DNA of 64,000 nucleotides from Actinomycetes bacterium (lineage in GTDB: Bacteria; Actinomycetota; Thermoleophilia; RBG-16-64-13), in assembly GCA_021372435.1 (NCBI GenBank), contig JAJFUK010000110.1, positions 9,022 to 73,021 on the forward strand, written 5' to 3'. The notes beneath the pieces were generated by a model. It was given only the letters and a program-made list of their open reading frames with translations. It had not been told where the DNA came from and did not search any database. A program made the position numbers and the translations under genes. Numbering within the stretch: the stretch's first letter is position 1; each line of letters starts with the position of its first letter. This document shows, one piece after another, positions 15,623 to 62,661 of this stretch.

Positions 15623-15906
15623 AGAGCCGTATGGAGCCGCAGGGAGTCACAGCGCGCCCCGACGGCCGGGAGACACCGCTTTTAGGCACCGCTGCGCGCG
15701 AGGACCAAGGGGCTCGGCCCTTCGCGACCCCGGGCCCGTCGCCCGCGGCTCTTCAGACTCACTCTGCCATCGCATCACTCCACCCACCGAACACTTCATG
15801 GGCCGGACACCTCATGGCCTCAGACACGGATCACCCGCCGGCCGGCGCCTGGGTCGCGGAGACCTCGAGACCGACCGCGTGCCGTCCTTTGCGCCGCACC
15901 ACGCGC

Positions 15907-16743
15907 TCAGGTCTCCTCCCGGCCGGCGGCGGGCGGAAAGACCTCGTTGAGGCTCCCGCTTCTGAAACCGCTCAGGTCGAGGGTCACATACAGATACCCC
16001 AACTCGCGTAGGCGCTTAACGATAGCACGCCGGACGGATTCGTCGGCGGCACGGGATATCTCGGGTCCGGGCACCTCGATACGGGCGACGTCTCCGTGGT
16101 GGCGCAGTCGCACTGCGGAGAACCCCAGGGTCCGTAGGAAACGTTCCCCCTCAGCCACCACTTGGAGCTTAGCCGCCGTGATCGGCTCACCGTAGGGGAA
16201 CCGGCTGGCCAGACAGGGCGACGCAGGCAGGTCCCAGTTGGTCAGCGCCGATCGGCGGGCCAGCTCACGCACCTCGGCCTTCCCGATGCCGGCTTCAGCC
16301 AGAGGACTGCGGACTCCCAGCGCCGCCGCCGCCCGCATGCCCGGCCGGTAATCGGCCCCGTCATCACGGTTCACTCCGTCGACTACCGTGGCCATGCCTT
16401 CCGCCGCGGCCAGCTCGACCAGCATGCCGTACATCTCACTGCGGCAGAGGAAACAACGCTCCGGAGGGTTGGTGGCAAAGCCGGGGATGGCCAGCTCGTT
16501 GGTGCGGATGACGAGGTGACGGACCCCCAGCCGGGCGGCGGCTGCGCGCGCCGCCTCCAGTTCCTCCGCCGTGTGCACGTCGCCGTGGGCCGTGACGGCC
16601 AGGATAGCCTGCGGCCCCACTTCATCGAGTGCCAGCTTCAGCAGCAGGGTGGAATCGACGCCCCCTGAGAACGCGACCAGAAGGGGGGCCGCCTCCCGCA
16701 GGAGGGTGCGGAGCCGCTCTACTCTGTCTGCGAGACCGTCCAT
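15907..16743 (-). CDS. LarE-family PP-loop ATP pyrophosphatase (TIGR00268-like), three-cysteine type
   Basis: SGGVDS PP-loop, a CxxC pair (ERCFLCRSEMY) and a PASPCLASRFPYGEPIT motif, which together are typical of the LarE family with three conserved cysteines. Start taken at the internal MDGLADRV. Confidence 0.7.
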   Translation of the reverse strand: MDGLADRVERLRTLLREAAPLLVAFSGGVDSTLLLKLALDEVGPQAILAVTAHGDVHTAEELEAARAAAARLGVRHLVIRTNELAIPGFATNPPERCFLCRSEMYGMLVELAAAEGMATVVDGVNRDDGADYRPGMRAAAALGVRSPLAEAGIGKAEVRELARRSALTNWDLPASPCLASRFPYGEPITAAKLQVVAEGERFLRTLGFSAVRLRHHGDVARIEVPGPEISRAADESVRRAIVKRLRELGYLYVTLDLSGFRSGSLNEVFPPAAGREET

Positions 16744-17507
16744 AAGGATCGGGCCGCCGCCACACCGCAGCACAGGCAGCCGGCATCACGAGGCACTTCG
16801 AGCCTATCCATGGTGAGATCCCAGACGTCTACCACGAGCAACCCCTGGTTCCTCGCGGCCGGATCTACCACCAGCTTGATCGCCTCGCCCGCTTCTACGC
16901 TGCCGATGACGGCCACCACCGTGTTCAACACCCCCGCCGTCGCCGCGGTCGGGGAGTGGTCGGGAGAAGGGAGATCCCGGACCAGGCAGCGCAGACAGGG
17001 ACCTTCGCCGGGTACGATGGTCATCGACATGCCACTGGTCCGGATGACGCCCCCATACACCCAAGGCATCCCCCGCGCGACGGCATAGTCGTTGATGACG
17101 AACCGGGTGGGGAAGTTGTCGGTGCCGTCCACCAGGAGGTCCAAATCGTCCGCGAAACCGGGCAGGTTGCCCTGATCTATGGTGGTCACCACCGGTTCGA
17201 CCGTCACCTGGCTGTTGGCCTTCTTCAAGAAGGCGGCCGCAGCCTCCGCCTTGGGGACACGACGGGCCACGTCATCCTCGGTGAAGAGGATCTGCCGGTG
17301 GAGGTTCTCAAGATCGGGGCAATCCCTGTCGACGATGCGCACAAGGCCTACGCCTGCGCGGACCAAATGGGTGCAGATCACGCACCCCAATGCGCCACAG
17401 CCGACCAGGCCGACCCGCGCTCGGGCCAGTTTCTCCTGCCCGTCTCGACCGATCTGCGGGACCAGCATCTGTCTGCGATAGCGCTCGAGAGGATCGCCGG
17501 CGCTCAC
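16719..17507 (-). CDS. ThiF/MoeB/HesA-family E1-like adenylyltransferase
   Basis: RYRRQ motif, GxGxxG nucleotide-binding loop (LVGCGALGCV), and a two-CxxC zinc motif (CLRCL ... CLCCG). 262 aa, no rhodanese domain. Confidence 0.8.
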   Translation of the reverse strand: MSAGDPLERYRRQMLVPQIGRDGQEKLARARVGLVGCGALGCVICTHLVRAGVGLVRIVDRDCPDLENLHRQILFTEDDVARRVPKAEAAAAFLKKANSQVTVEPVVTTIDQGNLPGFADDLDLLVDGTDNFPTRFVINDYAVARGMPWVYGGVIRTSGMSMTIVPGEGPCLRCLVRDLPSPDHSPTAATAGVLNTVVAVIGSVEAGEAIKLVVDPAARNQGLLVVDVWDLTMDRLEVPRDAGCLCCGVAAARSLWTVSQTE

Positions 17508-17516
17508 AGTCCCCTC

Positions 17517-18740
17517 CTACCCGGCGGGCTTGGTGGCGGTCGTGGCCGGCGGTATGTAGTCCTTCCCAATGACGACGATGATGTACCCGGGCTTGAGCGT
17601 CTCATCCACCTCGATGGCACCGACTCCGAGAAGAGCGCGCACCCGCCCACCCAGGTCCGCTACGTCAGGAGCCACCTGGATGCGCGTCCGCTCCACATCG
17701 GGGAAATCCGCTGAATTGCCGGCAGGCAGCATGATATACCCCAAGGGCGCGAGGACTTCGCCGGCCTCTTGCGCGATCCCTACTACTCCCGAACCGTTCT
17801 GCACCTGAAGGGTCACGTTCACCTCCGCTGACCTTCCGGCCAGAGCAGCCTTGGCGGCCTCCACGTCCGGTTCCACGTACTTGAAACCGACGCCTTCCAC
17901 CAGCCTGCCGCTGAGCTCAGCCGCCATCCATCCGCCTCCCGGCACCGCGGCGACCAGATCGCCCATCACCTCACGGAACTCGTCGGCGTCGCCCTCCAGC
18001 GCGAGGCCGGCCCACAAGTTCTCGTCGGTCTCCGGAGCATCCCCGCCGGCGAGCGCGAGGAGGGCTCGGGCGACCTGCGCCGGCTCCCCCCCTCCGGCGG
18101 CGAGGACCGCCGGCGGCAGATCGGCTACGCCGGCGTTCTGCACGACGGTGCGCAGGGCCGGCCATTCCACCGAAGCCACACATTCGCTCAGCACTCCTAG
18201 AGCCTCGGAAAGCGCCGTCTGCAGGGCCTCATCCCGGCCGCTAAGATGGAGTTCGGCAAGGGTCTCGAAGCCTTCGGCGGTCTTGAGCAGTGTCGCTCCA
18301 GGCATGGCGAGAACGGTCCCCCCCGCATCCCGCGGGTAGAAGAAGACCAAGACGGGTACGGCGTCCCCCTGCTCGATCACGAGCAGCGCGGTCCGCGCCC
18401 TCTCGTCATCGACCTCGGCGGCCGGGAGAGTCGTCACCGCCTCGCCCTCGACCTCCCGTCCGCCCAGCAGCGCGAACAACGCAACTATCGCCGCGATCAC
18501 GACCAACGTAGGGCCGACCACGATCGCCGTCCGGACCATCGTCTTGCGTCTGTGTTTCGCCCTACGGCTCATGCGCCGCTCGGAGCGGGAGGCGTACTCG
18601 CTCCGCCGGCCCCCGGATGCCGAGGCGGCACGTTCGGACGGTTCCACGCCGACAGAACGATCCCAAGCGGACAGCCGCTCCAGCGGGGAAGGCCGCTTCG
18701 GCGTTCTATCGGGTCTCTGCTCCTCGTCCACGTCCGTCAT
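17517..18740 (-). CDS. Membrane protein with a C-terminal LytR_C domain
   Basis: Basic cytoplasmic N-terminus, one TM helix (AIVVGPTLVVIAAIVALFALL) and a C-terminal LytR_C-like segment (VTLQVQNGSGVVGIA...RIQVAPDVADLGGRV). Start moved to the M15 codon (by arithmetic from the track) to avoid overlapping nadD. Confidence 0.5.
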   Translation of the reverse strand: MTDVDEEQRPDRTPKRPSPLERLSAWDRSVGVEPSERAASASGGRRSEYASRSERRMSRRAKHRRKTMVRTAIVVGPTLVVIAAIVALFALLGGREVEGEAVTTLPAAEVDDERARTALLVIEQGDAVPVLVFFYPRDAGGTVLAMPGATLLKTAEGFETLAELHLSGRDEALQTALSEALGVLSECVASVEWPALRTVVQNAGVADLPPAVLAAGGGEPAQVARALLALAGGDAPETDENLWAGLALEGDADEFREVMGDLVAAVPGGGWMAAELSGRLVEGVGFKYVEPDVEAAKAALAGRSAEVNVTLQVQNGSGVVGIAQEAGEVLAPLGYIMLPAGNSADFPDVERTRIQVAPDVADLGGRVRALLGVGAIEVDETLKPGYIIVVIGKDYIPPATTATKPAG

Positions 18741-18744
18741 GCGC

Positions 18745-19425
18745 TTAGCCGGAGGCCGGCCCCGTCGCCGCATAGTACCCACTCTTCTCGATAAGATAGG
18801 CCACAGGATCCGGGACTAGGTACCGTACGGTCTTCCCGGCCATCAGCCGTTCCCTGATCATGCTGGAGGAGATCGATAGGGCCGGCACCTCCAAGATCTT
18901 GACGCGGGCTTCGGGTACGAGGCCCACCGTGGTGGATCTGAGCTTCTCCAGAAGCCCGGCCAGGCGGGATAGGTCGTAGCCCGGCCGGGTGGCCGCGATG
19001 AACGTGGACAGCTCCAGGACTCGAGCCGGGTCCTTCCAGCCAAGGATGTCGAGCACCGCGTCGGCCCCCGTGATGAAGAACATCTCCGTTCCTGGGGGGA
19101 CGACACCGGCCAAGTGTTCCAGCGTGTCGACGGTATAGCTCACTTCTTCTCTCGAGATCTCGTAGCGCGACACCGAGAACCTGGGATTGCCGGCGGTGGC
19201 CACTTCGGTCAGAAGATACCGGAACTCCGCAGGCGCCATCTTACGGCTCTTGTGGGGAGGATCCCCGGCCGGCATGAACAGCACCTGATCCAAGTTGAAC
19301 TCAGCCAGGGCTTCCTGGGCGGTGACCAGGTGTGCGATGTGGATAGGATCGAAGGCGCCGCCCATGATCCCCAATCGTAGACCGGGGAGGTCCCGCAGCC
19401 CGGAGATAAGACCGTCTTGATCCAT
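18745..19425 (-). CDS. nadD: Nicotinate-nucleotide adenylyltransferase
   Basis: 226 aa with a GGAFDPIHIAHL (H/T)xGH nucleotidyltransferase motif and an ISSSMIR motif. Confidence 0.85.
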   Translation of the reverse strand: MDQDGLISGLRDLPGLRLGIMGGAFDPIHIAHLVTAQEALAEFNLDQVLFMPAGDPPHKSRKMAPAEFRYLLTEVATAGNPRFSVSRYEISREEVSYTVDTLEHLAGVVPPGTEMFFITGADAVLDILGWKDPARVLELSTFIAATRPGYDLSRLAGLLEKLRSTTVGLVPEARVKILEVPALSISSSMIRERLMAGKTVRYLVPDPVAYLIEKSGYYAATGPASG

Positions 19426-46664: not shown

Positions 46665-46704
46665 ATCTATCCTTTCCTCGATTCAGTTCCGGGGGCGCCT
46701 CGAG

Positions 46705-46784
46705 TGCGGGTGAGAGGACTCGAACCTCCACGTCAAAGACACATGATCCTAAATCATGCGCGTCTGCCATTCCGCCACACCCGC
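46705..46784 (-). tRNA. tRNA-Leu (anticodon TAG)
   Basis: Folds as a cloverleaf by hand: acceptor GCGGGTG/CACCCGC, D-arm GTGGCGGAAT-GGCAGACGC (Leu-type), anticodon loop TTTAGGA, long variable arm, T-loop GGTTCGAGTCC. CCA not encoded. Confidence 0.75.
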
Positions 46785-46796
46785 CGACTCCCGAGG

Positions 46797-46870
46797 GGTG
46801 AACGACGGGACTTGAACCCGCGACCGCTGGGGCCACAACCCAGTGCTCTACCAACTGAGCTACGTTCACC
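46797..46870 (-). tRNA. tRNA-His (anticodon GTG)
   Basis: Encoded G-1 opposite discriminator C73, anticodon loop TTGTGGC, T-loop GGTTCAAGTCC. Confidence 0.75.
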
Positions 46871-46910
46871 ACGTTCTCCACACCCCGGTAGCAAACCACC
46901 GGGCCCGAGA

Positions 46911-46984
<74 letters not shown>

Positions 46985-47023
46985 TCGTTCCTCCCGGCGG
47001 CAGTAGCGCACAGCCGCCGGAGG

Positions 47024-47096
<73 letters not shown>

Positions 47097-47126
47097 CTGC
47101 TCATGCCCTGCTGCTCCGCCGGACCA

Positions 47127-47203
47127 TGGTCGGGACGAGAGGATTCGAACCTCCGACCCCCTGCTCCCAAAGCAGGTGCGCTACCAGGCTGCGCCACGTC
47201 CCG
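47127..47203 (-). tRNA. tRNA-Pro (anticodon TGG), CCA encoded
   Basis: Acceptor CGGGACG/CGTCCCG, anticodon loop TTTGGGA, T-loop GGTTCGAATCC, followed by an encoded A-CCA. Confidence 0.75.
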
Positions 47204-53594: not shown

Positions 53595-53671
53595 TGGTCG
53601 GGGTGCCGGGATTTGAACCCGGGACCTCATCGTCCCGAACGATGCGCGCTACCAGGCTGCGCTACACCCCG
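53595..53671 (-). tRNA. tRNA-Pro (anticodon CGG), CCA encoded
   Basis: Acceptor CGGGGTG/CACCCCG, anticodon loop TTCGGGA, T-loop GGTTCAAATCC, encoded A-CCA tail. Confidence 0.75.
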
Positions 53672-56700: not shown

Positions 56701-57379
56701 ACGCCCGCAGCCGGTCCACATCGGCCTGCAGTGAGGAACCGGGGCGCGCCGACACCCGCACGGCCGCGAGCGCCCGGTCGATGGCCTCGACCAAGCGGTC
56801 GCGCGCCCACCCCGGCGGAGGTCCGGGAGCGATGGTCACCTGCGGTTGGTCGTAGCCCAGCCCACGCAGCCGGTCGTAGAGAGGCCCTATCTGCCTCCGC
56901 AGACCGTCCCGGCCGGAGGCCAGGACTTCGAGCTCCATCTCGTCGACGTCCTCGGCCACGCGCTCCCAGGCCTCCCGGCCGGTCTCTTGCTTGACCAGAG
57001 CGGCCGCCTCCGCCTCGAGCACCGAACAAGCCGGATCGACTCCCACCTCAAGCGCCCGGTCTGTGATCAAACGCCGGCAGAGAGCGTGGATCGTCCCGAT
57101 AGTGGCCGCGTCCAGAGACCAGGCCAAGTCGCTCCTCCCCCGAAGTCGAAGCTCGCAACGGATGCGATCGGCCAGTTCGGCGGCCGCCTTCCGGGTGAAG
57201 GTGACGGCCACCAGCCGGTCGGCCGGAATGCCCTCCTCGAGGAGGGCGCGGACGAAGTACGCCACGAGAAGCCGGGTCTTGCCGCTCCCTGCGGCGGCGG
57301 ACACCAGTATTCTCGGACGAGGGTCAAGCACCACCGGCTCCTGCGTCTTGGACAGTCTGGTGCCTTGCTCGCCGGTCAT
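53723..57379 (-). CDS. addA: AddA-like helicase-nuclease subunit (UvrD-family helicase plus C-terminal PD-(D/E)XK nuclease)
   Basis: N-terminal ILVSAAAGSGKTRLLV Walker A typical of AddA/RecB, with UvrD-like motifs throughout. C-terminal RecB-type nuclease (LSFSALAAYQRCPRRFYL ... IIDYKTN). ATG at 57379 overlaps the addB stop (ATGA). The track ORF begins at 57430. Confidence 0.8.
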   Translation of the reverse strand: MTGEQGTRLSKTQEPVVLDPRPRILVSAAAGSGKTRLLVAYFVRALLEEGIPADRLVAVTFTRKAAAELADRIRCELRLRGRSDLAWSLDAATIGTIHALCRRLITDRALEVGVDPACSVLEAEAAALVKQETGREAWERVAEDVDEMELEVLASGRDGLRRQIGPLYDRLRGLGYDQPQVTIAPGPPPGWARDRLVEAIDRALAAVRVSARPGSSLQADVDRLRACLQWLEGRMSDEERAARLAETLDFFPSRRTRSMEADFEPVREALTQYRSALAELRLRPLVSTVNRLLMEFHQRYEARKRERGMLDFTDLELRARALVSGRGGAGASDPVLPGCWVLIDEFQDTNEVQCSILEGLGATRLLMVGDYRQSIYRFRGADVQVFRKREEELGSKAADDPAGTLYRLDTNYRSRKEILDFVNRLFAHPSYFGADFKPLLPPDPEEEPAEATDITARPAPRPAPSTGGPATTTVYPGRAPSAPARPAVASRAGGAAVEVLVAERGVPTDPAKLLLSIPEAEARVVAARIRSLIHEEGYLQRDIVVLLPAYTYVDIYRRALLAAGLQVYVVRGKGYYAQEEVADIVSLLRLLVSPHDDLAMVAALRSPLVGISDDALYHLGRQKGKDGASLWDVVRSGKVAALGHEDRMLLEAFAVRLDGLRRRVGRPGLARLIDEAVSICAYDRCLLASPDGMRRFANVGKLMRMARDFEALEGPDLAGFVKLIASMGDLSDQEGSAPTLAEGDDVVRLMTIHQAKGLEFPVVVLAGLGSDVFHGETPDVVVGDDGRMAVFLKGSKRENYEAYDLSWGPGAEVVAQGRERENEEDVRLLYVAMTRAQQRLILIGARPVGERLDGSRIGRTIVGLGLQGLPAEGESATLDGLDAVVASIPVVGSGAPPAPARPQMKAGGAPDGEGRGMSAELPSEPPSESPSESPRESGPESSPEFLVAAPRAGVPHHLSFSALAAYQRCPRRFYLERMLGLDREGIERGDDDEADDAPPPGDLLLDPDERQTGRDVGLLTHALLERLPVGDGPPAEESVRREADAWLLQTGVELSPADVERAVALTLAFWKMPAAGTWSHPAAAREAHFFFARGDALLSGVMDLVLRDDECWRIIDYKTNALAGRAPAELMSSYELQAIVYCLAALLAGAPAVQMDFVFLEDPAEPQTRRFGRGDIPRLESSLDGVLGDLGRREFPARTSEECARCPVAWVCAAVARP

Positions 57380-60300
57380 GGACGATACTCCCCCCGCCGG
57401 GCGCGGCAGGCCGGCCCGAGCGGGCACCACGACGGGCAGGGCCGGTCGGCCCGCGGAGCGATGACCCCGGTCCGCATGCCTTCGGCGGCGTCAATAGCGG
57501 TCTGCACCGTGAGCCGAGACAGCTCCTCCAGGCCCGGCTCATCGAGCGACCTGATCCCGGCAGCCCCTGAGCCGAGCACCCACTCCGCCCCGGCCGCCAC
57601 CACGCCGGAGCGTTTCTTGTCGAACAATGAGAGGTACGCCCCGCCGATGACGCCCGCTCGGGGCCGCTCCGCGGCAAGGGCCAGCAGATACAGCGGCAAC
57701 TGCAGCGCTTCGCCCGTCCCTAAAGCCTTCGGCGGCGGGATGGCGCCCGTCTTGTAATCGAGGATGAACACCCCCGTGCCGTCGGGAGTGGCATCGACGC
57801 GATCGATGCGTCCCCGCACCCTGAGCCCGCCGATGTCCACGCCCCGGTTACCTCCCACCCACATCTCGGACTGCGAGAACGTCAGTGGGCCCGCGGCGGC
57901 GGCCTCCATATCGAAGAGGTTCCGCGCCATGCGCTTCAGCCTCCAGGCGGCCAGCCGCCGCTCTGAGAAGGAGCCCGGACACCGGTCTTCCCAGACGAGC
58001 CGGTCGACGACGTCGCACGCGACCTGCCCGGCCCGGCGGACGCCCGGCTCCCTTAGGGGCAGAAGACCTTCCGCCGACAGCGTGCGGTAGGTCTCGCTGA
58101 GCACATCGTGCAACAATCGCCCGATCATACGGCCGTCCAGTTCCAGATCGATATCCTCAGCTCCGACGACCCTCTCCACGAACCACCTGAAGGGGCAGTC
58201 CGCATACGCCTCGAGCGCCGATGGGTTGAAGCATCCGGTGGAGGCGAGCTCCTCCAAGACGGCCGGATCAGCCAGGCGGGAGGGCGGGCGGCCCCACGGC
58301 GGCACTGCCTCTCCGAATCCGAGCGCGACCACGGCCGGATGGGGCGCACACCCGTACGCGGCGCACGCCCTCAGGTAGTGCCGCAGTGACGGAGCTTTGT
58401 GGAGGGCGAAGACCTGGTCGGCCAGAGTGCGGTACTCGGGGAAGGACCCGTCGAGTCCCAGCAATCGTCTCGCCTCCTGCCAGTAAGGGGATGGGACGCT
58501 CTCCGTCCCGTCGTCCTCCGCGTCCCGCGCGCTGAGAAGAAGCAGGCGCCATGGCCGCGAGATGGCGCTGACGAAGAAGGCCGCCTCTTGGTCGGGTTCC
58601 GGGGGAAGAAGACCTCCTCCCGCCTCGTCGAGCCGTGCCCGTTGACCGGCGCTGAGCAGGGAAGGCCGGTCGGGGCTCCCCGGGAACTCCCCTTCGGCCA
58701 GACCCAGTATCACCACCGCCTGGAACCGGCGGGCGCGCGCTCTCTGCACGCTGAGTATCTGGACCGCATCATCGTCCTCAGAGCGTTCCCCGGGCACCGC
58801 CACACGGCCCAGGGAGTGCAGCACGAGCCGGGGATCGAGCCGGTCGGAGCGGCCGGCTTCTGCGCCGCCCACGTCCATCGAGGCGCCCAGCGACGCGAGG
58901 GATATCATCGTCCGCAACGCTCCCTGCAACGCCCGGAACACCCGCACATCCTCCGCCGCCGTCCGGTCGGTCAACCGGCAATCGTGCAGCCCGGCGATCA
59001 ACATGTCGTGAATCAGACTCCCGGCGGCCGCCGGCACGAACCACGGCCCGGCTCCCTCGGGGACCGCCGCCGGGGTGAGAACATGACCGCGAGCGACCTC
59101 CACTCCCGGCTCGCGGCCCACATCGGACCCGACGGCGACCCAATCGACCATCTTCCAGAGCCGCTCCACTCGACCCGAGCCTCCATCCGCGGCGATCCGC
59201 GCCACGGCCCGGGCGCCCCGCGCAGTCCCCCGCCGGTATGCGAGCTCCAGGTCACCCGTCTCCTCAAGGGAGAGACCGCTGTAGGGACTGCGCAGATAGG
59301 CCAGCAAAGCCTCGCCCTCGTCCAGGCTCACTCCCCGCAGCGCCTGCAGGAAGGCATGGCCGAGCCCCGTCTCGCGCACGCAGGGACGATCGTCCATGTG
59401 ATAGGGGATGCCGCACGACTCGAAGACATCCCCAAGAAGGCCGCTCCATGGGCGGACGTGCCGCACGATGACCGCAATCTGACCCGGTCTGCAGCCGCCC
59501 CTGATCAGGTCGGCGACCTTCTCTGCCGCCAGCTCCGCCTCGGCACGCCGGCCGGAGGCCAGAAGGAACCGGACTCCGTCATCCTTCGAGCACGCCGGCG
59601 CCGCCTCGCGCGCCGGCGGCCGGTCGGCCGCACACATGAAGTACCGCTCCAGATAAGCGACGGCCGCAGACGTGTAGGCGCGCTCCGGAGGCGCCACCTC
59701 CTTCACCTCGGAGGCCCTTGAGATCCACCAGGAGATCTCCCCCGGCGTGCTGAGATTGACGGCCCGGGAGCGATCATACGTGAACGTGACGAGCACCTCC
59801 GCCCGGCGGGACAGCGCCTCGACGAGAGCCCGTTGTCCGGCGGTGAAGGACGTGAAGCCGTAGAAGGCGACCGGTCTCTCCCAGGCGCCGGCGGCGGGTC
59901 TCGCTTCGCGCACGGCGACCGGGCGGTCGGTGAGGCCGAGGGCGGCGTAGATCTTCTCCTGAGCCCGGGCCAGCCGCCGGATATCGCCGGCCAAGGCGCC
60001 CGACCGGGGATCGCTCACCGCCCAACGGGCAAGGACGCGGTCGAGGTCATCACGGTCCCTGCCGCTTTGCCACAACTGCTCCAGCAGCTCGACGAGCCCC
60101 GTGACCACGCCCGGAAGGTGCATCGACGCGGAGAGGGCCTCGAGACGGGTCTCGCGAAGAATGCGGCCTGCGATCAGCGTGCGTTCTAGGTCGGTCGCGT
60201 AACGAGGGGACCGGCCCAGGACGAGGCGCACCAGGCCGTCGAAAGTGAGGGCCCGGTCTTGCCCGACCAATCCTCCGAGCCGCCCGGCCATCTCCAACGA

Positions 60301-60447
60301 GACCTGGTGCGCGTCGGGTCCCGTAGGAACCACCACCACAGGTCGCCGGGTAAGCCTCTCCTGCCACCAGTCGAGGACCAGCCCCTGCTTGCCGGAGTTG
60401 GCCGGACCTACAACGAGCGTCAGTCGCTTGGGAGACGATCCACTCAT
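57376..60447 (-). CDS. addB: AddB-like helicase-nuclease subunit (degenerate ATP-binding N-terminus plus Fe-S PD-(D/E)XK nuclease)
   Basis: The internal ATG at 60447 gives an N-terminus MSGSSPKRLTLVVGPANSGKQG (AddB-type Walker A). The 408 codons upstream are an open antisense overlap with the pafBC-like gene. C-terminal nuclease with an AddB-like four-Cys arrangement (CPFRWF ... CPSWCPLGPAC) and the DYKTG motif. Confidence 0.75.
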   Translation of the reverse strand: MSGSSPKRLTLVVGPANSGKQGLVLDWWQERLTRRPVVVVPTGPDAHQVSLEMAGRLGGLVGQDRALTFDGLVRLVLGRSPRYATDLERTLIAGRILRETRLEALSASMHLPGVVTGLVELLEQLWQSGRDRDDLDRVLARWAVSDPRSGALAGDIRRLARAQEKIYAALGLTDRPVAVREARPAAGAWERPVAFYGFTSFTAGQRALVEALSRRAEVLVTFTYDRSRAVNLSTPGEISWWISRASEVKEVAPPERAYTSAAVAYLERYFMCAADRPPAREAAPACSKDDGVRFLLASGRRAEAELAAEKVADLIRGGCRPGQIAVIVRHVRPWSGLLGDVFESCGIPYHMDDRPCVRETGLGHAFLQALRGVSLDEGEALLAYLRSPYSGLSLEETGDLELAYRRGTARGARAVARIAADGGSGRVERLWKMVDWVAVGSDVGREPGVEVARGHVLTPAAVPEGAGPWFVPAAAGSLIHDMLIAGLHDCRLTDRTAAEDVRVFRALQGALRTMISLASLGASMDVGGAEAGRSDRLDPRLVLHSLGRVAVPGERSEDDDAVQILSVQRARARRFQAVVILGLAEGEFPGSPDRPSLLSAGQRARLDEAGGGLLPPEPDQEAAFFVSAISRPWRLLLLSARDAEDDGTESVPSPYWQEARRLLGLDGSFPEYRTLADQVFALHKAPSLRHYLRACAAYGCAPHPAVVALGFGEAVPPWGRPPSRLADPAVLEELASTGCFNPSALEAYADCPFRWFVERVVGAEDIDLELDGRMIGRLLHDVLSETYRTLSAEGLLPLREPGVRRAGQVACDVVDRLVWEDRCPGSFSERRLAAWRLKRMARNLFDMEAAAAGPLTFSQSEMWVGGNRGVDIGGLRVRGRIDRVDATPDGTGVFILDYKTGAIPPPKALGTGEALQLPLYLLALAAERPRAGVIGGAYLSLFDKKRSGVVAAGAEWVLGSGAAGIRSLDEPGLEELSRLTVQTAIDAAEGMRTGVIAPRADRPCPSWCPLGPACRARRGEYRP

Positions 60448-60519
60448 GATTGGGCTTATTGTAGAGCCCCGTCCGGACGGATGCTGTCCATCACCCCGGT
60501 AGTGCGCTAGTCTTACGCC
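60448..60519. promoter_or_regulatory. Divergent promoter region between addB and the pafBC-like gene
   Basis: 72-bp spacer. On the minus strand a TACAAT hexamer sits about 10 nt upstream of the addB ATG. On the plus strand a TAGTCT hexamer ends 6 nt before the pafBC-like ATG, suggesting a leaderless transcript. A TGTCCATCAC element lies between them. Confidence 0.3.
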
Positions 60520-62661
60520 ATGAGCCGCGACGACGACAAGCTCATACGCCAGCTGTCCCTCATCTCGTTCCTCCTGAGCCGTCCGCGGCCGTTCACCGCG
60601 CGCGAGATCCAGGAGTCGGTGGAAGGCTATGCTGAGATGACCGACGAGACATTCACGCGCCGGTTCCACGCCGACCGCGCCGACCTGGCCAGGGTCGGCA
60701 TCCAAGTACGGGTGCTCAGTGGCTCGGAGGCGGCTTACTCCACCGAGGCCCAACTGTACCTGCTCAGCGAGGAGGACTTCCGTCTGCCCCTCGTGGACTT
60801 CACGCCGGCCGAGGTACAGGCCCTCTCCCTCGCGCTCGCGGCCCTGGACGGCCGCTTCGCGTACGCCCGCCCGCTGCGCATGGCGCTGACGGCCGTGTTG
60901 CACGGACGGCAAGACCCCATCCAGACTGAGCTTGAGCAGTTGCCCGTGGCTCTTGCCCCGGACGAGGACGCCCGCCGGGCCAGGCGCCAGCTCTCCCGCT
61001 TGGAGGAGGCGGTCACGAGAGGAAAGACGGTCTGCTTCTCCTACCCCGCGGGTGATGGCGGCCTGCGGGAACGCACGCTCGATCCCTACGGCCTCTACCT
61101 GATCCAAAGCCATTGGTACGTGGTCGGTCGCGACCATCTGCGCGACGGCATCCGGATGTTCCGCTTGGGCAGGATCCAAGGAGCCGTGCGCTTTCTTACC
61201 GACAAGGTCCGCGATTTCTCGATCCCCCCCGATTTCGACCCCGGCGAGTACGGCGCACGGCCGCCGTGGATGATCGGTCCTCTCCAGGGAACAGCCCTGG
61301 TCAAGGTCGGAGACGACCTCGCGTGGTGGGTCGAACGTCTGCGGCCCCATGTGACCCGCGCGGCCGATGAGCCGGAGGGGTGCGCGGTCTTCGCCATGCC
61401 GTACGCCGACGAATCGGTCTTCCTCTCGTGGGTAGTGGGCCTTGGCGGCTGTGGCGAGCTCTTGGAGCCCGATGGGCTGCGGGCCGGGTTGAGGGAGTCC
61501 CTCACCGCCATCTGCAGAGCGCACGAGGATGACGTTGAGAACGGCCACGGCGAAGTGACCGGGGCGGCCCATGAGGCAGCGGCCGGCGAGAGTCGCGGCG
61601 AGCAGGAGCCGGGCGGCCCTTCCGAAAAGCAGGAGCCCGAAGATCTGGAGGCCGCCATAGCTCCCGAGCACATAGCCCGCGCGATCACGCTCCTTTGTTA
61701 TCTGGTCGACGAACGACGGCCGCCTTTGATCACGTGGCAGACCCTGGAGAACGACCTAGGCCTCACCCGCGCCGAGGTCGAGCGCGACCTGTCCCTGATC
61801 AACCTCGTCAATTACGGCGGAGGGACGTTCGCCCTCATGGCTGAAGCCGGCCCCGAAGGGGTCAAGGTGGCGAGGGACATCATGGCCGACACGTTCGCCC
61901 ATCCTGCCCGGTTGTCACCGGGGATGGCCCGGGCGTTGCTTCTCGCCCTCGACCTCCTCGGCGACACCGTCGCGCTGGAGGGGCTCGAGTCGCTGTCGTC
62001 GGTCCGCGAGAAGGTCCACGCGCTCATCGGGGCCGAGAGCGCCGAGGGCGCCGTCATCGTCGACGAGGTCTTCCCGCCCGACCCAGGGATCGTGGAGGTC
62101 CTCAACCACGCCGTTCGCGACCGGTCGCTCGTCGCGCTCGATTACTACAGCGCCACCAGACAGGAGCTCTCCGAGCGGCGCGTGGAGCCGTATCTGCTCT
62201 TCCACTCGCCGGACGGCTGGTACTTAGAGGCCTACTGCCTCAAGGCGCAGGAGCAGCGTACGTTCAAGCTCGACCGCATCCGTTCCGCCCGCAGCACCGG
62301 GGAGACCTTCACGCCCCGCGCTGAGGTCGACCTCAGCCCACACAGGGCCGGCCGGGCCTTCCTCGAGCACGATGTGGCCACCTGGGCCACTGTGCGCTTC
62401 AGGCCTCGTTGGCGCACCTATCTTGAGGATTCGGGCCGGGAGTACACGCGCCGGACCGACGGCCACCTGGTCGTCAGGATGCCTTACGTGGACGAGCGCT
62501 GGATGGCGCACGAGGTCATCCGTTTTCTCGGGGACGCCGTGCTTGAAAGGCCGGCTTCGGCGCGGCGCAAGGTCGCCGAAGTCGCGCGCGCGCTGCTCAC
62601 CCGCTACCAGGAGGACCGCCCGGCCACCCGTCCGGCCGGCTCTCCTGGGGAGGTCCAGTGA
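60520..62661 (+). CDS. pafBC: Fused double HTH-WYL-WCX transcriptional regulator (PafBC-like)
   Basis: 713 aa with two successive modules. Each has an N-terminal winged HTH (LIRQLSLISFLLSRPRPFTAREI / ARAITLLCYLVDERRPPLITWQTL), a WYL domain (PYGLYLIQSHWYVVGRD / PYLLFHSPDGWYLEAYC) and a C-terminal extension. This matches naturally fused PafB-PafC proteins. Confidence 0.7.
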   Translation: MSRDDDKLIRQLSLISFLLSRPRPFTAREIQESVEGYAEMTDETFTRRFHADRADLARVGIQVRVLSGSEAAYSTEAQLYLLSEEDFRLPLVDFTPAEVQALSLALAALDGRFAYARPLRMALTAVLHGRQDPIQTELEQLPVALAPDEDARRARRQLSRLEEAVTRGKTVCFSYPAGDGGLRERTLDPYGLYLIQSHWYVVGRDHLRDGIRMFRLGRIQGAVRFLTDKVRDFSIPPDFDPGEYGARPPWMIGPLQGTALVKVGDDLAWWVERLRPHVTRAADEPEGCAVFAMPYADESVFLSWVVGLGGCGELLEPDGLRAGLRESLTAICRAHEDDVENGHGEVTGAAHEAAAGESRGEQEPGGPSEKQEPEDLEAAIAPEHIARAITLLCYLVDERRPPLITWQTLENDLGLTRAEVERDLSLINLVNYGGGTFALMAEAGPEGVKVARDIMADTFAHPARLSPGMARALLLALDLLGDTVALEGLESLSSVREKVHALIGAESAEGAVIVDEVFPPDPGIVEVLNHAVRDRSLVALDYYSATRQELSERRVEPYLLFHSPDGWYLEAYCLKAQEQRTFKLDRIRSARSTGETFTPRAEVDLSPHRAGRAFLEHDVATWATVRFRPRWRTYLEDSGREYTRRTDGHLVVRMPYVDERWMAHEVIRFLGDAVLERPASARRKVAEVARALLTRYQEDRPATRPAGSPGEVQ

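What the first reader, a model, noticed from the sequence alone, without database searches (positions are those of the whole stretch)
15907..17507. ThiF/MoeB-like E1 paired with a three-cysteine LarE-family PP-loop ATPase, with no other lactate-racemase cofactor genes nearby, in the nadD operon
Two tightly spaced genes encode a short ThiF/MoeB-type adenylyltransferase and a LarE-family protein. The LarE-like protein has the SGGVDS PP-loop, a CxxC pair (ERCFLCRSEMY) and the PASPCLASR cysteine, i.e. the three-Cys arrangement of LarE homologues reported to bind a [4Fe-4S] cluster. LarE normally inserts sulfur into a nicotinate-derived nucleotide made from NaAD, and NaAD is the product of NadD, which is encoded two genes upstream here. 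No larA/larB/larC, no ThiS/MoaD-like carrier and no cysteine desulfurase are visible in the window. A LarE-like enzyme with an E1 partner and linkage to NaAD synthesis could be a sulfur-insertion module acting on a pyridine nucleotide or another carboxylate substrate; this is an inference, not something the sequence shows.
Basis: partly seen in the sequence, partly recalled or inferred. Interest (0 to 1): 0.6.

Follow-up and report, generated by a model that had tools for sequence, protein, structure and literature searches.

The report
E1 enzyme paired with iron-sulfur LarE
Two overlapping genes in an uncultured actinobacterium encode a sulfur-carrier-activating E1 enzyme and a three-cysteine LarE sulfur insertase; in relatives the pair sits among cysteine-synthesis genes, which suggests how this type of LarE may get its sulfur, while the neighbouring nadD gene looks incidental.

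Summary
Window 16719-17507 (-) encodes a 262-aa ThiF/MoeB-type E1. Window 15907-16743 (-) encodes a 278-aa LarE (TIGR00268, 313 bits against a cut-off of 150). The two genes overlap by 25 nt. LarE has the PP-loop, the three Cys at the [4Fe-4S] positions of M. maripaludis LarE, and the residues proposed to bind the P2CMN phosphate.

The pair is conserved across a large uncultured Actinomycetota lineage. It recurs with a different E1 subfamily in a Thermoleophilia and a Clostridia genome.

The proposed nadD link is not supported. nadD belongs to the housekeeping block obg-proB-proA-nadD-lytR_C. The context that recurs is sulfur and cysteine metabolism: rrf2-cysK-E1-larE-cysE, cysE translationally coupled to larE, and Rrf2-LarE fusion proteins.

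Missing lar neighbours are normal: only 20 of 80 species-level LarE loci have larB or larC nearby.

The closest E1 relatives outside the lineage sit next to ThiS-family carrier genes. My best reading (confidence about 0.4) is that the E1 charges a carrier encoded elsewhere, and the carrier feeds the LarE cluster, as in TtuC/TtuB/TtuA. Simple co-regulation is nearly as likely.

I could not check whether the genome has larA, larB or larC. The pair is a new variant of known kinds and of moderate interest.

The parts
16719..17507 (-). E1-type adenylyltransferase of the ThiF/MoeB family: 262 aa, no rhodanese domain, no crossover-loop Cys
   Evidence: Pfam ThiF 221.6 bits, full length. It scores below every NCBIfam equivalog cut-off. 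The best PDB match is E. coli MoeB 1jw9 at 4e-35. The GTG start follows an AGGAGGGG Shine-Dalgarno sequence.
15907..16743 (-). LarE, a PP-loop ATP-dependent sulfur insertase of the three-Cys ([4Fe-4S]) type, 278 aa
   Evidence: TIGR00268 312.8 bits against a cut-off of 150. L. plantarum LarE 5udq 2.7e-56 and M. maripaludis LarE 8cnz 3.6e-15. Identical to the NCBI protein P0001.
16719..16743 (-). 25-nt overlap between the end of the E1 gene and the start of LarE (translational coupling)
   Evidence: Sequence read. Relatives have 4-38 nt overlaps or a 3-nt gap.
16651..16668 (-). LarE PP-loop SGGVDS (aa 26-31), the ATP pyrophosphatase motif
   Evidence: At least 95% conserved in 85 LarE sequences.
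16444..16455 (-). LarE CxxC (C97, C100), two of the three predicted cluster ligands
   Evidence: Aligns with the CxxC of 8cnz and with W97/A100 of L. plantarum LarE. At least 95% conserved.
16201..16215 (-). LarE C177-L-A-S180-R181: the third cluster Cys and the Ser equivalent to L. plantarum S180
   Evidence: The one-residue shift relative to L. plantarum C176 matches PMC9283937.
16096..16110 (-). LarE R212-L-R214, equivalents of the L. plantarum P2CMN phosphate-binding arginines
   Evidence: Invariant in alignment A1 and at least 95% conserved in 85 sequences. Their role is taken from PMC9283937.
17385..17402 (-). E1 nucleotide-binding loop GCGALG (aa 36-41)
17115..17129 (-). E1 DGTDN motif containing the catalytic Asp130 equivalent
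   Evidence: D130, N131 and R135 are invariant in alignment A2. Aligned to the MoeB DCTDN motif.
16986..16997 (-). E1 first zinc motif CLRC (C171, C174)
   Evidence: Aligns with MoeB CYRC. Invariant in A2.
16767..16778 (-). E1 second zinc motif CLCC (C244, C247)
   Evidence: Aligns with MoeB CEVC. Invariant in A2.
16929..16955 (-). E1 crossover loop SPTAATAGV: Ala replaces the Cys found in ThiF (C184), MoeB (C187) and the L052 E1
15623..15906 (-). 284-nt non-coding gap between LarE and pcrA. Relatives carry cysE here. No remnant, Rfam match or terminator was found.
   Evidence: cysE occupies this slot in L006, L007, L089 and L090.
17517..18782 (-). LytR_C-domain membrane protein. It is the upstream operon neighbour (9 nt before the E1 start) and is context only. 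It is absent between nadD and the E1 gene in L008.
   Evidence: Pfam LytR_C 48.5 bits. L008 layout.
18745..19425 (-). nadD (nicotinate-nucleotide adenylyltransferase), the last enzyme gene of the obg-proB-proA-nadD housekeeping block. It is context only; no functional link is supported.
   Evidence: NF000840 236.4 bits against a cut-off of 150. Synteny.

Best explanation
The two genes form a sulfur-supply and sulfur-insertion pair. They are what remains in this genome of a cysteine/sulfur gene module (rrf2-cysK-E1-larE-cysE in relatives). That module sits between two housekeeping blocks: obg-proBA-nadD-lytR_C on one side and pcrA-mraZ-dcw on the other.

Shown:
- LarE is a standard three-Cys LarE.
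- The E1 has an intact adenylation site and an intact zinc site.
- The genes are translationally coupled, and the pairing is conserved.

Inferred by homology:
- LarE binds a [4Fe-4S] cluster through C97, C100 and C177.
- LarE adenylates the carboxylates of pyridinium-3,5-biscarboxylate mononucleotide (P2CMN) with its PP-loop.
- LarE replaces AMP with a sulfide held on the free iron of the cluster, giving the dithiocarboxylate precursor of the nickel-pincer cofactor.

Inferred from context:
- The E1 adenylates the C-terminal glycine of a ThiS/MoaD/CysO-type carrier protein encoded elsewhere in the genome.
- The resulting carrier thiocarboxylate is the sulfur donor that reloads the LarE cluster, as TtuC and TtuB do for TtuA.
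- Where cysK is present, the same carrier may also serve cysteine synthesis.

The position next to nadD is a by-product of synteny.
For: LarE identity:
- TIGR00268 scores 312.8 bits against a cut-off of 150.
- The protein is 40% identical to L. plantarum LarE, and the three Cys align with those of the [4Fe-4S] LarE 8cnz.
- C97, C100, C177, S180, R181, R212 and R214 are at least 95% conserved in 85 LarE sequences.
- No alignment column separates larB/C-linked LarE (n=20) from cysK/rrf2/E1-linked LarE (n=19).
- LarE-LarB and LarC-LarE fusion proteins exist at 45-51% identity to this LarE.

Pairing within the lineage:
- E1-LarE sits in the same slot, with 4-38 nt overlaps or a 3-nt gap, in L001, L005-L008, L088 and L089. 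These relatives have 64-73% LarE identity.
- The two top-120 homologue lists share 23 contig-length fingerprints.

Recurrence outside the lineage:
- L133 has cysteine desulfurase, a radical SAM protein, MnmA, a window-type E1 and LarE.
- Thermoleophilia L052 has rrf2-cysK-E1-larE-cysE, and Geosporobacter L049 has larE-nifU-E1. Both use a MoeB-type E1, a different subfamily, so the adjacency arose more than once.

The E1 activates a carrier:
- Its nearest relatives outside the lineage (L092, L102, L095; 49-55% identity) and L136 have a ThiS-family ORF ending in GG immediately upstream, scoring 55-63 bits.

Precedent and need:
- [4Fe-4S] LarE requires an external sulfur donor, and only E. coli IscS has been tested, in vitro (PMC9283937).
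- TtuA takes sulfur from TtuB thiocarboxylate, which is made by the E1 TtuC (PMC8584467).
Against: - No carrier gene lies in the window or within 10 kb of the pair in any lineage relative.
- The E1 can stand without LarE. L090 has nadD-lytR_C-E1-cysE-pcrA, and L155 has rrf2-cysK-E1-cysE.
- LarE often stands with cysK/rrf2 and no E1, as in L024, L026, L038, L048, L065 and L085.
- Only about 6 of 80 LarE loci have any E1 within 6 kb.
- cysK is near 12 of the 80 E1-anchored loci, but LarE near only 4-5.
- T. maritima LarE works with a cysteine desulfurase alone.
- I could not check whether this genome has larB or larC.
- There is no experimental evidence for any E1-LarE system.
Confidence: 0.4

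Rival explanations
1. The two genes are co-regulated but independent. Both belong to a cysteine/sulfur regulon. The E1 serves a carrier for cysteine, molybdopterin or thiamin synthesis. LarE obtains sulfur from a cysteine desulfurase or from free sulfide. The adjacency reflects shared regulation and operon compaction, not a direct relay.
For: - Each gene associates with cysK/cysE/rrf2 on its own. E1-cysE occurs without LarE in L090 and L155. rrf2-cysK-LarE occurs without an E1 in at least 6 loci.
- cysK is near 12 of 80 E1 loci, against 4-5 for LarE.
- Short gene overlaps are common throughout this operon. nadD and lytR_C overlap by 38 nt, and larE and cysE overlap by 4 nt in relatives.
- IscS is sufficient for T. 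maritima LarE in vitro.
Against: - Immediate E1-LarE adjacency arose at least twice, with two different E1 subfamilies.
- In this window the pair persists although cysE, cysK and rrf2 have left the locus.
Confidence: 0.35
2. The LarE-family protein here has a role outside nickel-pincer cofactor synthesis. It and the E1 would act in sulfur assimilation or cysteine metabolism, for example by making a different thiocarboxylate or by sensing sulfur status.
For: - In the 80-locus sample, lar-gene contexts (20 loci) and cysK/rrf2 or E1 contexts (16 loci) never coincide.
- Rrf2-LarE fusion proteins occur in close relatives (L088, L089).
- LarE is fused to FdhD and to a translational-GTPase-like domain in other organisms.
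- LarE lies in a large sulfur island in L136 with a ThiS-like carrier, E1, TusA, CysK and HcyBio.
- No lar gene lies within 10 kb in any lineage relative.
Against: - No residue distinguishes the two context classes.
- All residues tied to ATP, cluster and P2CMN-phosphate binding are kept.
- The two context classes are interspersed in the neighbour-joining tree.
- LarE-LarB and LarC-LarE fusions exist at the same identity level.
- lar genes are often dispersed in genomes.
Confidence: 0.12
3. The pair is functionally coupled to NadD and acts on NaAD, NaMN or another pyridine nucleotide made in the same operon.
For: - nadD lies two genes upstream in one apparent operon, with no promoter or terminator consensus between them.
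- NaAD is the known LarB substrate (PMC9283937).
- There are isolated NAD-gene neighbours elsewhere: nadA next to larE in L056, and a nadD-like gene next to larC in L020.
Against: - nadD is the end of the housekeeping block obg-proB-proA-nadD(-lytR_C).
- In L052 the pair follows rrf2-cysK instead.
- In L090 the nadD block is followed by E1-cysE with no LarE.
- Outside the lineage, a nadD-like gene was found near LarE in only one locus (L020).
Confidence: 0.08
4. The adjacency is a chance juxtaposition of two unrelated genes.
For: Most LarE genes have no E1 neighbour.
Against: - The pair is conserved over 64-100% LarE identity.
- Gene overlaps are conserved.
- The adjacency recurs independently in L052, L049 and L133.
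Confidence: 0.03

Closest known systems
[4Fe-4S]-dependent LarE (Thermotoga maritima LarE; Methanococcus maripaludis LarE, PDB 8cnz)
   Same: It has the PP-loop SGGxDS, the CxxC plus a distant Cys at the same alignment positions, and the conserved Ser/Arg/Arg proposed to bind the P2CMN phosphate (PMC9283937).
   Different: The gene is translationally coupled to an E1 and has no lar gene within the 64-kb window. The physiological sulfur donor is unknown. No activity has been tested.
Sacrificial LarE of Lactiplantibacillus plantarum (PDB 5udq)
   Same: Same family and fold. It is 40% identical over the full length, with E = 2.7e-56.
   Different: L. plantarum LarE has Trp/Ala instead of the CxxC and donates the sulfur of its own Cys176. 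Here three Cys predict a catalytic cluster.
TtuA-TtuB-TtuC of Thermus thermophilus (and Ncs6-Urm1-Uba4)
   Same: The logic matches: a PP-loop ATPase with a three-Cys [4Fe-4S] cluster receives sulfur from a ubiquitin-like carrier thiocarboxylate made by a ThiF/MoeB-type E1 (PMC8584467; PMC9283937).
   Different: The substrate there is tRNA uridine, and TtuA is a different PP-loop subfamily. No carrier gene was found near this pair. The relay to LarE is inferred, not shown.
CysO-CysM-MoeZ and HcyS-HcyF type carrier-thiocarboxylate pathways for cysteine and homocysteine
   Same: An E1 sits in a cysteine-synthesis gene context in relatives (rrf2-cysK-E1-cysE). The nearest outgroup E1s sit beside a ThiS-family carrier, a ThrC-like PLP enzyme and a class-V aminotransferase.
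   Different: No carrier, JAMM protease or rhodanese domain is present here. The L052 CysK scores as an ordinary cysteine synthase A (TIGR01139, 455 bits). The pathway details come from my own knowledge of the literature.
E. coli MoeB and ThiF
   Same: Same fold, nucleotide-binding loop, catalytic Asp and two CxxC zinc motifs.
   Different: It scores below all NCBIfam equivalog cut-offs. It lacks the crossover-loop Cys. There are no moa or thi genes in the window.
Pyridine-2,6-dithiocarboxylate (PDTC) biosynthesis in Pseudomonas (recalled from memory, not tested)
   Same: As I recall it, an E1/carrier sulfur relay is used to turn pyridine carboxylates into thiocarboxylates. That is the same chemistry on a similar ring.
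   Different: The enzymes and the substrate are different. This is a lead only; nothing was checked here.

Membership tests
LarE (TIGR00268, P2CMN sulfurtransferase) | Full-length match above the curated family cut-off | tested here: met
   312.8 bits against a cut-off of 150, covering residues 19-276 of the 288-aa ORF.
LarE (TIGR00268, P2CMN sulfurtransferase) | PP-loop SGGxDS ATP pyrophosphatase motif | tested here: met
   SGGVDS at aa 26-31.
LarE (TIGR00268, P2CMN sulfurtransferase) | Residues proposed to bind the P2CMN phosphate (L. plantarum S180, R212, R214) | tested here: met
   S180, R212 and R214 are conserved in the alignment. Their role is taken from PMC9283937.
LarE, [4Fe-4S] subtype | CxxC plus a distant Cys at the cluster-ligand positions | tested here: met
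   C97, C100 and C177 align with the Cys of 8cnz. The third Cys is one residue after L. plantarum C176, as published.
LarE, [4Fe-4S] subtype | Actual binding of a [4Fe-4S] cluster and conversion of P2CMN to P2TMN | not testable with these tools
   Requires anaerobic biochemistry.
Nickel-pincer cofactor pathway (larB-larC-larE) | larB and larC present in the same genome | not testable with these tools
   Both are absent from the 64-kb window and from the 10-kb flanks of seven relatives.
ThiF/MoeB E1 adenylyltransferases | Full-length ThiF domain with nucleotide-binding loop and catalytic Asp | tested here: met
   Pfam ThiF 221.6 bits, profile positions 1-237 of 238. GCGALG and DGTDN are present; D130 is invariant.
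ThiF/MoeB E1 adenylyltransferases | Two CxxC zinc motifs | tested here: met
   CLRC (aa 171-174) and CLCC (aa 244-247) align with the MoeB zinc ligands.
ThiF sensu stricto (thiazole synthesis) | Equivalog score and crossover-loop Cys (E. coli C184) | tested here: not met
   TIGR02356 scores 220.8 bits against a cut-off of 275.25. The loop reads SPTAATAGV with no Cys.
MoeB (molybdopterin synthase adenylyltransferase) | Equivalog score | tested here: not met
   PRK08762 scores 211 (cut-off 449), PRK05690 scores 175 (cut-off 266) and TIGR02355 scores 141 (cut-off 377).
MoeZ/Uba4-type E1 | C-terminal rhodanese domain | tested here: not met
   The protein is 262 aa and ends 15 residues after the second CxxC. 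No rhodanese hit was found.
Carrier-activating E1 in general | A cognate ThiS/MoaD-type carrier ending in GG encoded alongside | tested here: not met
   None is in the window or in the flanks of lineage relatives. The feature is met in the nearest outgroup E1 loci L092, L102 and L095 and in L136.
TtuABC-like sulfur relay | PP-loop three-Cys enzyme, E1 and carrier thiocarboxylate acting together | tested here: inconclusive
   Two of the three components are present and translationally coupled. The carrier was not found and no interaction can be tested.

The most novel reading that the evidence does not exclude
In this lineage, and in the other lineages where an E1 sits beside larE, a ubiquitin-like carrier thiocarboxylate made by the E1 is the physiological sulfur donor of [4Fe-4S] LarE. 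The cysteine operon (rrf2-cysK-E1-larE-cysE, including Rrf2-LarE fusion proteins) couples nickel-pincer cofactor synthesis, or a still unknown LarE-made thiocarboxylate, to the cell's sulfur status. This would be a new sulfur relay into a cofactor pathway and a new class of Rrf2 regulator carrying an enzyme domain.
Probability: 0.25. Interest if true: 0.65.

Novelty: new variant of a known kind. Interest (0 to 1): 0.42.

Why it matters
Most LarE homologues are of the three-Cys type. Their natural sulfur donor is not established, because only E. coli IscS has been tried in vitro (PMC9283937).

A conserved, translationally coupled E1 partner, and a recurrent placement among cysK, cysE and rrf2, give a concrete hypothesis that can be tested: a carrier thiocarboxylate is the donor.

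The survey also shows that, in this sample, about as many larE genes sit in sulfur/cysteine operons as in lar operons. That affects how 'orphan' larE genes are annotated, and how nickel-pincer enzymes are mined by gene neighbourhood.

I found no paper in the searchable library that mentions LarE together with ThiF/MoeB, cysteine synthase or Rrf2 in this sense.

Tried and rejected
- Exact look-ups of the window E1 and LarE in the contig index found nothing, so I worked from relatives instead.
- A functional nadD link is rejected on synteny.
- I searched for lar genes, cysK, cysE, rrf2 and small GG-ending ORFs in the window. None was found.
- I looked for a riboswitch, promoter or terminator around the pair. 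There is no Rfam match other than tRNAs, no sigma-70 consensus and no terminator after larE.
- I looked for a remnant of cysE in the 284-nt gap. None was found.
It was still useful as an outgroup sample.
- My simple greedy ORF caller failed on several high-GC loci. Gene presence was therefore scored with tblastn instead.
- I considered using the last large protein search with LarB or LarC and matching contig lengths to lineage contigs. I did not run it, because the top-120 list would be filled by close relatives of any query I hold and a negative result would mean nothing.
- Context look-ups of the HisPhos-LarE and TGS-LarE fusions gave contigs too short to be informative.
- The paper describing the adenine-dinucleotide pincer cofactor (Desguin 2025), Desguin 2014 and Fellner 2017 are not held in the library.
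Full report
**1. Observation**

The window is high-GC DNA (about 66%). It comes from an uncultured actinobacterium. The identical LarE and E1 proteins are named by NCBI as 'MAG: Actinomycetia bacterium' proteins on a 77,887-bp contig.

On the minus strand lie a 262-aa ThiF-family protein (16719-17507) and a LarE-family protein that ends at 15907.
- The E1 starts at a GTG behind a strong Shine-Dalgarno sequence.
- LarE starts at the ATG at 16743, which gives the 278-aa protein that NCBI annotates.
- The genes overlap by 25 nt.
- Family assignments are unambiguous: Pfam ThiF 221.6 bits over the full profile, and NCBIfam TIGR00268 (LarE) 312.8 bits against a cut-off of 150.

**2. LarE anatomy**

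- The protein is 40% identical to the structurally solved L. plantarum LarE (5udq, E = 2.7e-56). It also matches the [4Fe-4S] LarE of M. maripaludis (8cnz, E = 3.6e-15).
- C97 and C100 align with the CxxC of 8cnz and with Trp/Ala in the L. plantarum enzyme.
- C177 aligns with the third Cys of 8cnz and lies one residue after L. plantarum Cys176. This is the same shift reported for T. maritima LarE (PMC9283937).
- S180, R212 and R214 are the equivalents of the residues proposed to hold the P2CMN phosphate. They are conserved.
- In 85 LarE sequences from the fetched loci, C97, C100, C177, S180, R181, R212, R214 and the PP-loop are each at least 95% conserved.

**3. E1 anatomy**

- The best solved relatives are E. 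coli MoeB (4e-35), Uba4 and ThiF.
- The nucleotide loop (GCGALG), the DGTDN motif with the catalytic Asp, and both CxxC zinc motifs are present. All are invariant across lineage relatives.
- The protein scores below every NCBIfam equivalog cut-off: ThiF, MoeB, MoeZ and UbaA.
- It has no rhodanese domain.
- It lacks the crossover-loop Cys that ThiF, MoeB and the Thermoleophilia E1 possess (SPTAATAGV against VSCSEAGV).
- It therefore looks like an adenylation-only E1.

**4. Operon and window**

- Upstream, on the same strand with overlaps or single-digit spacers, lie obg, proB, proA, nadD and a LytR_C membrane protein.
- Downstream there is a 284-nt gap, then pcrA, mraZ, rsmH and the dcw cluster.
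- No promoter or terminator consensus and no Rfam element separate the genes.
- The window holds no larB, larC, cysK, cysE or rrf2.
- It holds no coding-like small ORF ending in GG.
- Nothing resembling LarA or a cysteine desulfurase is among the less obvious ORFs.

**5. Relatives of the same lineage**

The order nadD-(lytR_C)-E1-larE-pcrA is kept in contigs with 64-73% LarE identity: L001, L005, L006, L007 and L008. Gene overlaps of 4-38 nt, or a 3-nt gap, are also kept. Three variants are informative.
- In L006, L007 and L089 a gene overlapping the larE stop codon is cysE (TIGR01172, 237-239 bits against a cut-off of 210.65).
- In L088 and L089, LarE carries an N-terminal Rrf2 DNA-binding domain with a Cx5Cx5C motif.
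- In L090, on a 3.56-Mb contig, the slot holds E1-cysE and no larE.

The two top-120 homologue lists share 23 contig lengths. This is soft evidence that the pair is general in the lineage.

**6. Beyond the lineage, anchored on LarE**

A scan of one genome per species returned 80 LarE loci from many phyla, at 41-65% identity. The tblastn counts were as follows.

| Neighbour in fetched flanks | All 80 loci | 36 loci with full 8-kb flanks |
|---|---|---|
| larB or larC | 20 | 9 |
| cysK or rrf2 | 12 | 7 |
| ThiF/MoeB-type E1 within about 6 kb | 6 | 2 |

- The lar context and the cysteine/E1 context never coincide in this sample.
- The clearest case is Thermoleophilia L052: rrf2, cysK (TIGR01139, 455 bits), E1, larE, cysE, then pcrA a few genes on.
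- L049 has larE-nifU-E1.
- L046 has tusA-larE.
- L053 has rrf2-cysK-E1-like-MOSC-cutA-larE and a class-V aminotransferase.
- L056 has mnmA-larE-nadA.
- The E1s of L052 and L049 are MoeB-type. They share only 37% identity with the window E1 and have a different best NCBIfam model. E1-larE adjacency therefore arose more than once.

**7. Beyond the lineage, anchored on the E1**

The metagenome scan reached only more distant E1s, at 39-55% identity. Among those 80 loci:
- cysK is nearby in 12, rrf2 in about 6, larE in 4-5 and cysE in 2-3;
- L155 has rrf2-cysK-E1-cysE;
- L133 has a class-V aminotransferase, a radical SAM protein, mnmA, E1 and larE.

The nearest outgroups (L092, L102, L095) and L136 carry a ThiS-family ORF ending in AGG directly upstream of the E1, scoring 55-63 bits. 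They often also carry a ThrC-like PLP enzyme and a class-V aminotransferase. The E1 subfamily is therefore a genuine sulfur-carrier activator. The outgroup E1s are 340-356 aa; the window E1 has lost their C-terminal extension.

**8. Is this LarE likely to do LarE chemistry?**

- No alignment column separates larB/C-linked LarE (n=20) from cysK/rrf2/E1-linked LarE (n=19).
- The two classes are interspersed in a neighbour-joining tree. In that tree the actinobacterial E1-linked sequences form one clade next to larBC-linked ones.
- Among 50%-identity representatives (2,548 clusters at E < 1e-30), I found LarE-LarB and LarC-LarE fusions at 45-51% identity to this protein.
- I also found fusions to FdhD, to a translational-GTPase-like module, to an RNase H-like domain, to a histidine phosphatase and to a TGS domain.
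- I conclude that standard LarE chemistry on P2CMN is the most probable activity. This remains an inference, because the genome could not be searched for larB or larC.

**9. Mechanism and rivals**

- Best reading (0.4): the E1 charges a carrier encoded elsewhere, and the carrier thiocarboxylate reloads the LarE cluster. The parallel is TtuC/TtuB/TtuA (PMC8584467; PMC9283937).
- Main rival (0.35): both genes are simply members of a cysteine/sulfur regulon. This is supported by E1-cysE loci without larE and by cysK-larE loci without an E1.
- A role for this LarE outside pincer cofactor synthesis (0.12) is kept alive by the mutually exclusive contexts and the Rrf2 fusions. It is weakened by the residue analysis.
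- Chance adjacency (0.03) is contradicted by the synteny results.

**10. Literature**

- Most LarE homologues carry the CxxC-C motif. T. maritima LarE binds a [4Fe-4S] cluster and was supplied with sulfur in vitro by E. coli IscS (PMC9283937).
- Nickel-pincer enzymes now extend beyond LarA, and many genomes have larBCE without larA (PMC13524815).
- An adenine-dinucleotide form of the cofactor is cited there, but the paper is not held.
- Searches combining LarE with ThiF, MoeB, sulfur carrier, thiocarboxylate, cysteine synthase or Rrf2 found no description of this pairing.

**11. Limits**

- All relatives are metagenome-assembled, and their taxon names are the depositors' own.
- Many fetched loci are cut by contig ends, so 'absent' counts are upper bounds.
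- The neighbour-joining tree is poorly resolved.

Noticed in passing
L088 4692-5987; L089 2810-4105 (also P0090, P0099, P0106): Close relatives (63-66% LarE identity) encode a single 431-439-aa protein. It has an N-terminal Rrf2 DNA-binding domain (Pfam 109 bits, with a Cx5Cx5C motif) fused to a complete LarE, in the same E1-larE-cysE slot. This suggests a regulator with an enzyme domain.
   Followed up: partly
L090 10001-11675 (3.56-Mb contig): A lineage member has nadD-lytR_C-E1-cysE-pcrA with only 73 nt between the E1 gene and cysE, and no larE. The E1 is therefore kept where LarE is missing from the slot.
   Followed up: partly
window 15623-15906: The 284-nt non-coding gap after larE occupies the place where relatives have cysE. 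No cysE remnant, RNA family or terminator was found.
   Followed up: yes
L008-L087 (80 LarE loci): LarE loci with larB/larC neighbours (20) and those with cysK/rrf2 or E1 neighbours (16) do not overlap at all. Even so, no LarE residue distinguishes the two groups.
   Followed up: partly
L136 64-12729: This is a large sulfur island in a low-GC metagenome contig. It contains TusA, a ThiI-like PP-loop protein, a ThrC-like enzyme, thioredoxin, a ThiS-family carrier, E1, a NIL-like small protein, Rrf2, CysK, HcyBio (a homocysteine sulfur-incorporation enzyme), a NIL-ferredoxin-like protein and then LarE at the locus end.
   Followed up: partly
P0315, P0276, P0245/P0334/P0356, P0376, P0323: LarE homologues occur fused to an EF-Tu/eEF1A-like GTPase module (possibly CysN-like), to FdhD, to an RNase H-like domain (three clusters), to a TGS beta-grasp domain and to a histidine phosphatase.
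   Followed up: partly
L046 7668-8780; L056 6865-9657; L133 32-4872: Other sulfur-trafficking neighbours of larE were seen: tusA-larE in Desulfitobacterium; mnmA-larE-nadA in L056; and cysteine desulfurase, a radical SAM/BATS protein, mnmA, E1 and larE in L133. In L133 larE appears split into two ORFs.
   Followed up: partly
window 46704-47203 and 53595-53671: There is a cluster of five tRNA genes (Leu, His, Arg, Gly, Pro) downstream of tig, and a second tRNA-Pro further on.
   Followed up: no
window 57376-61671 (-) and 60520-62661 (+): A 1431-aa minus-strand ORF overlaps by more than 1 kb a plus-strand ORF with PafC-HTH, WYL and WCX domains. Both show coding-like GC3, so at least part of one of them must be spurious.
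   Followed up: no
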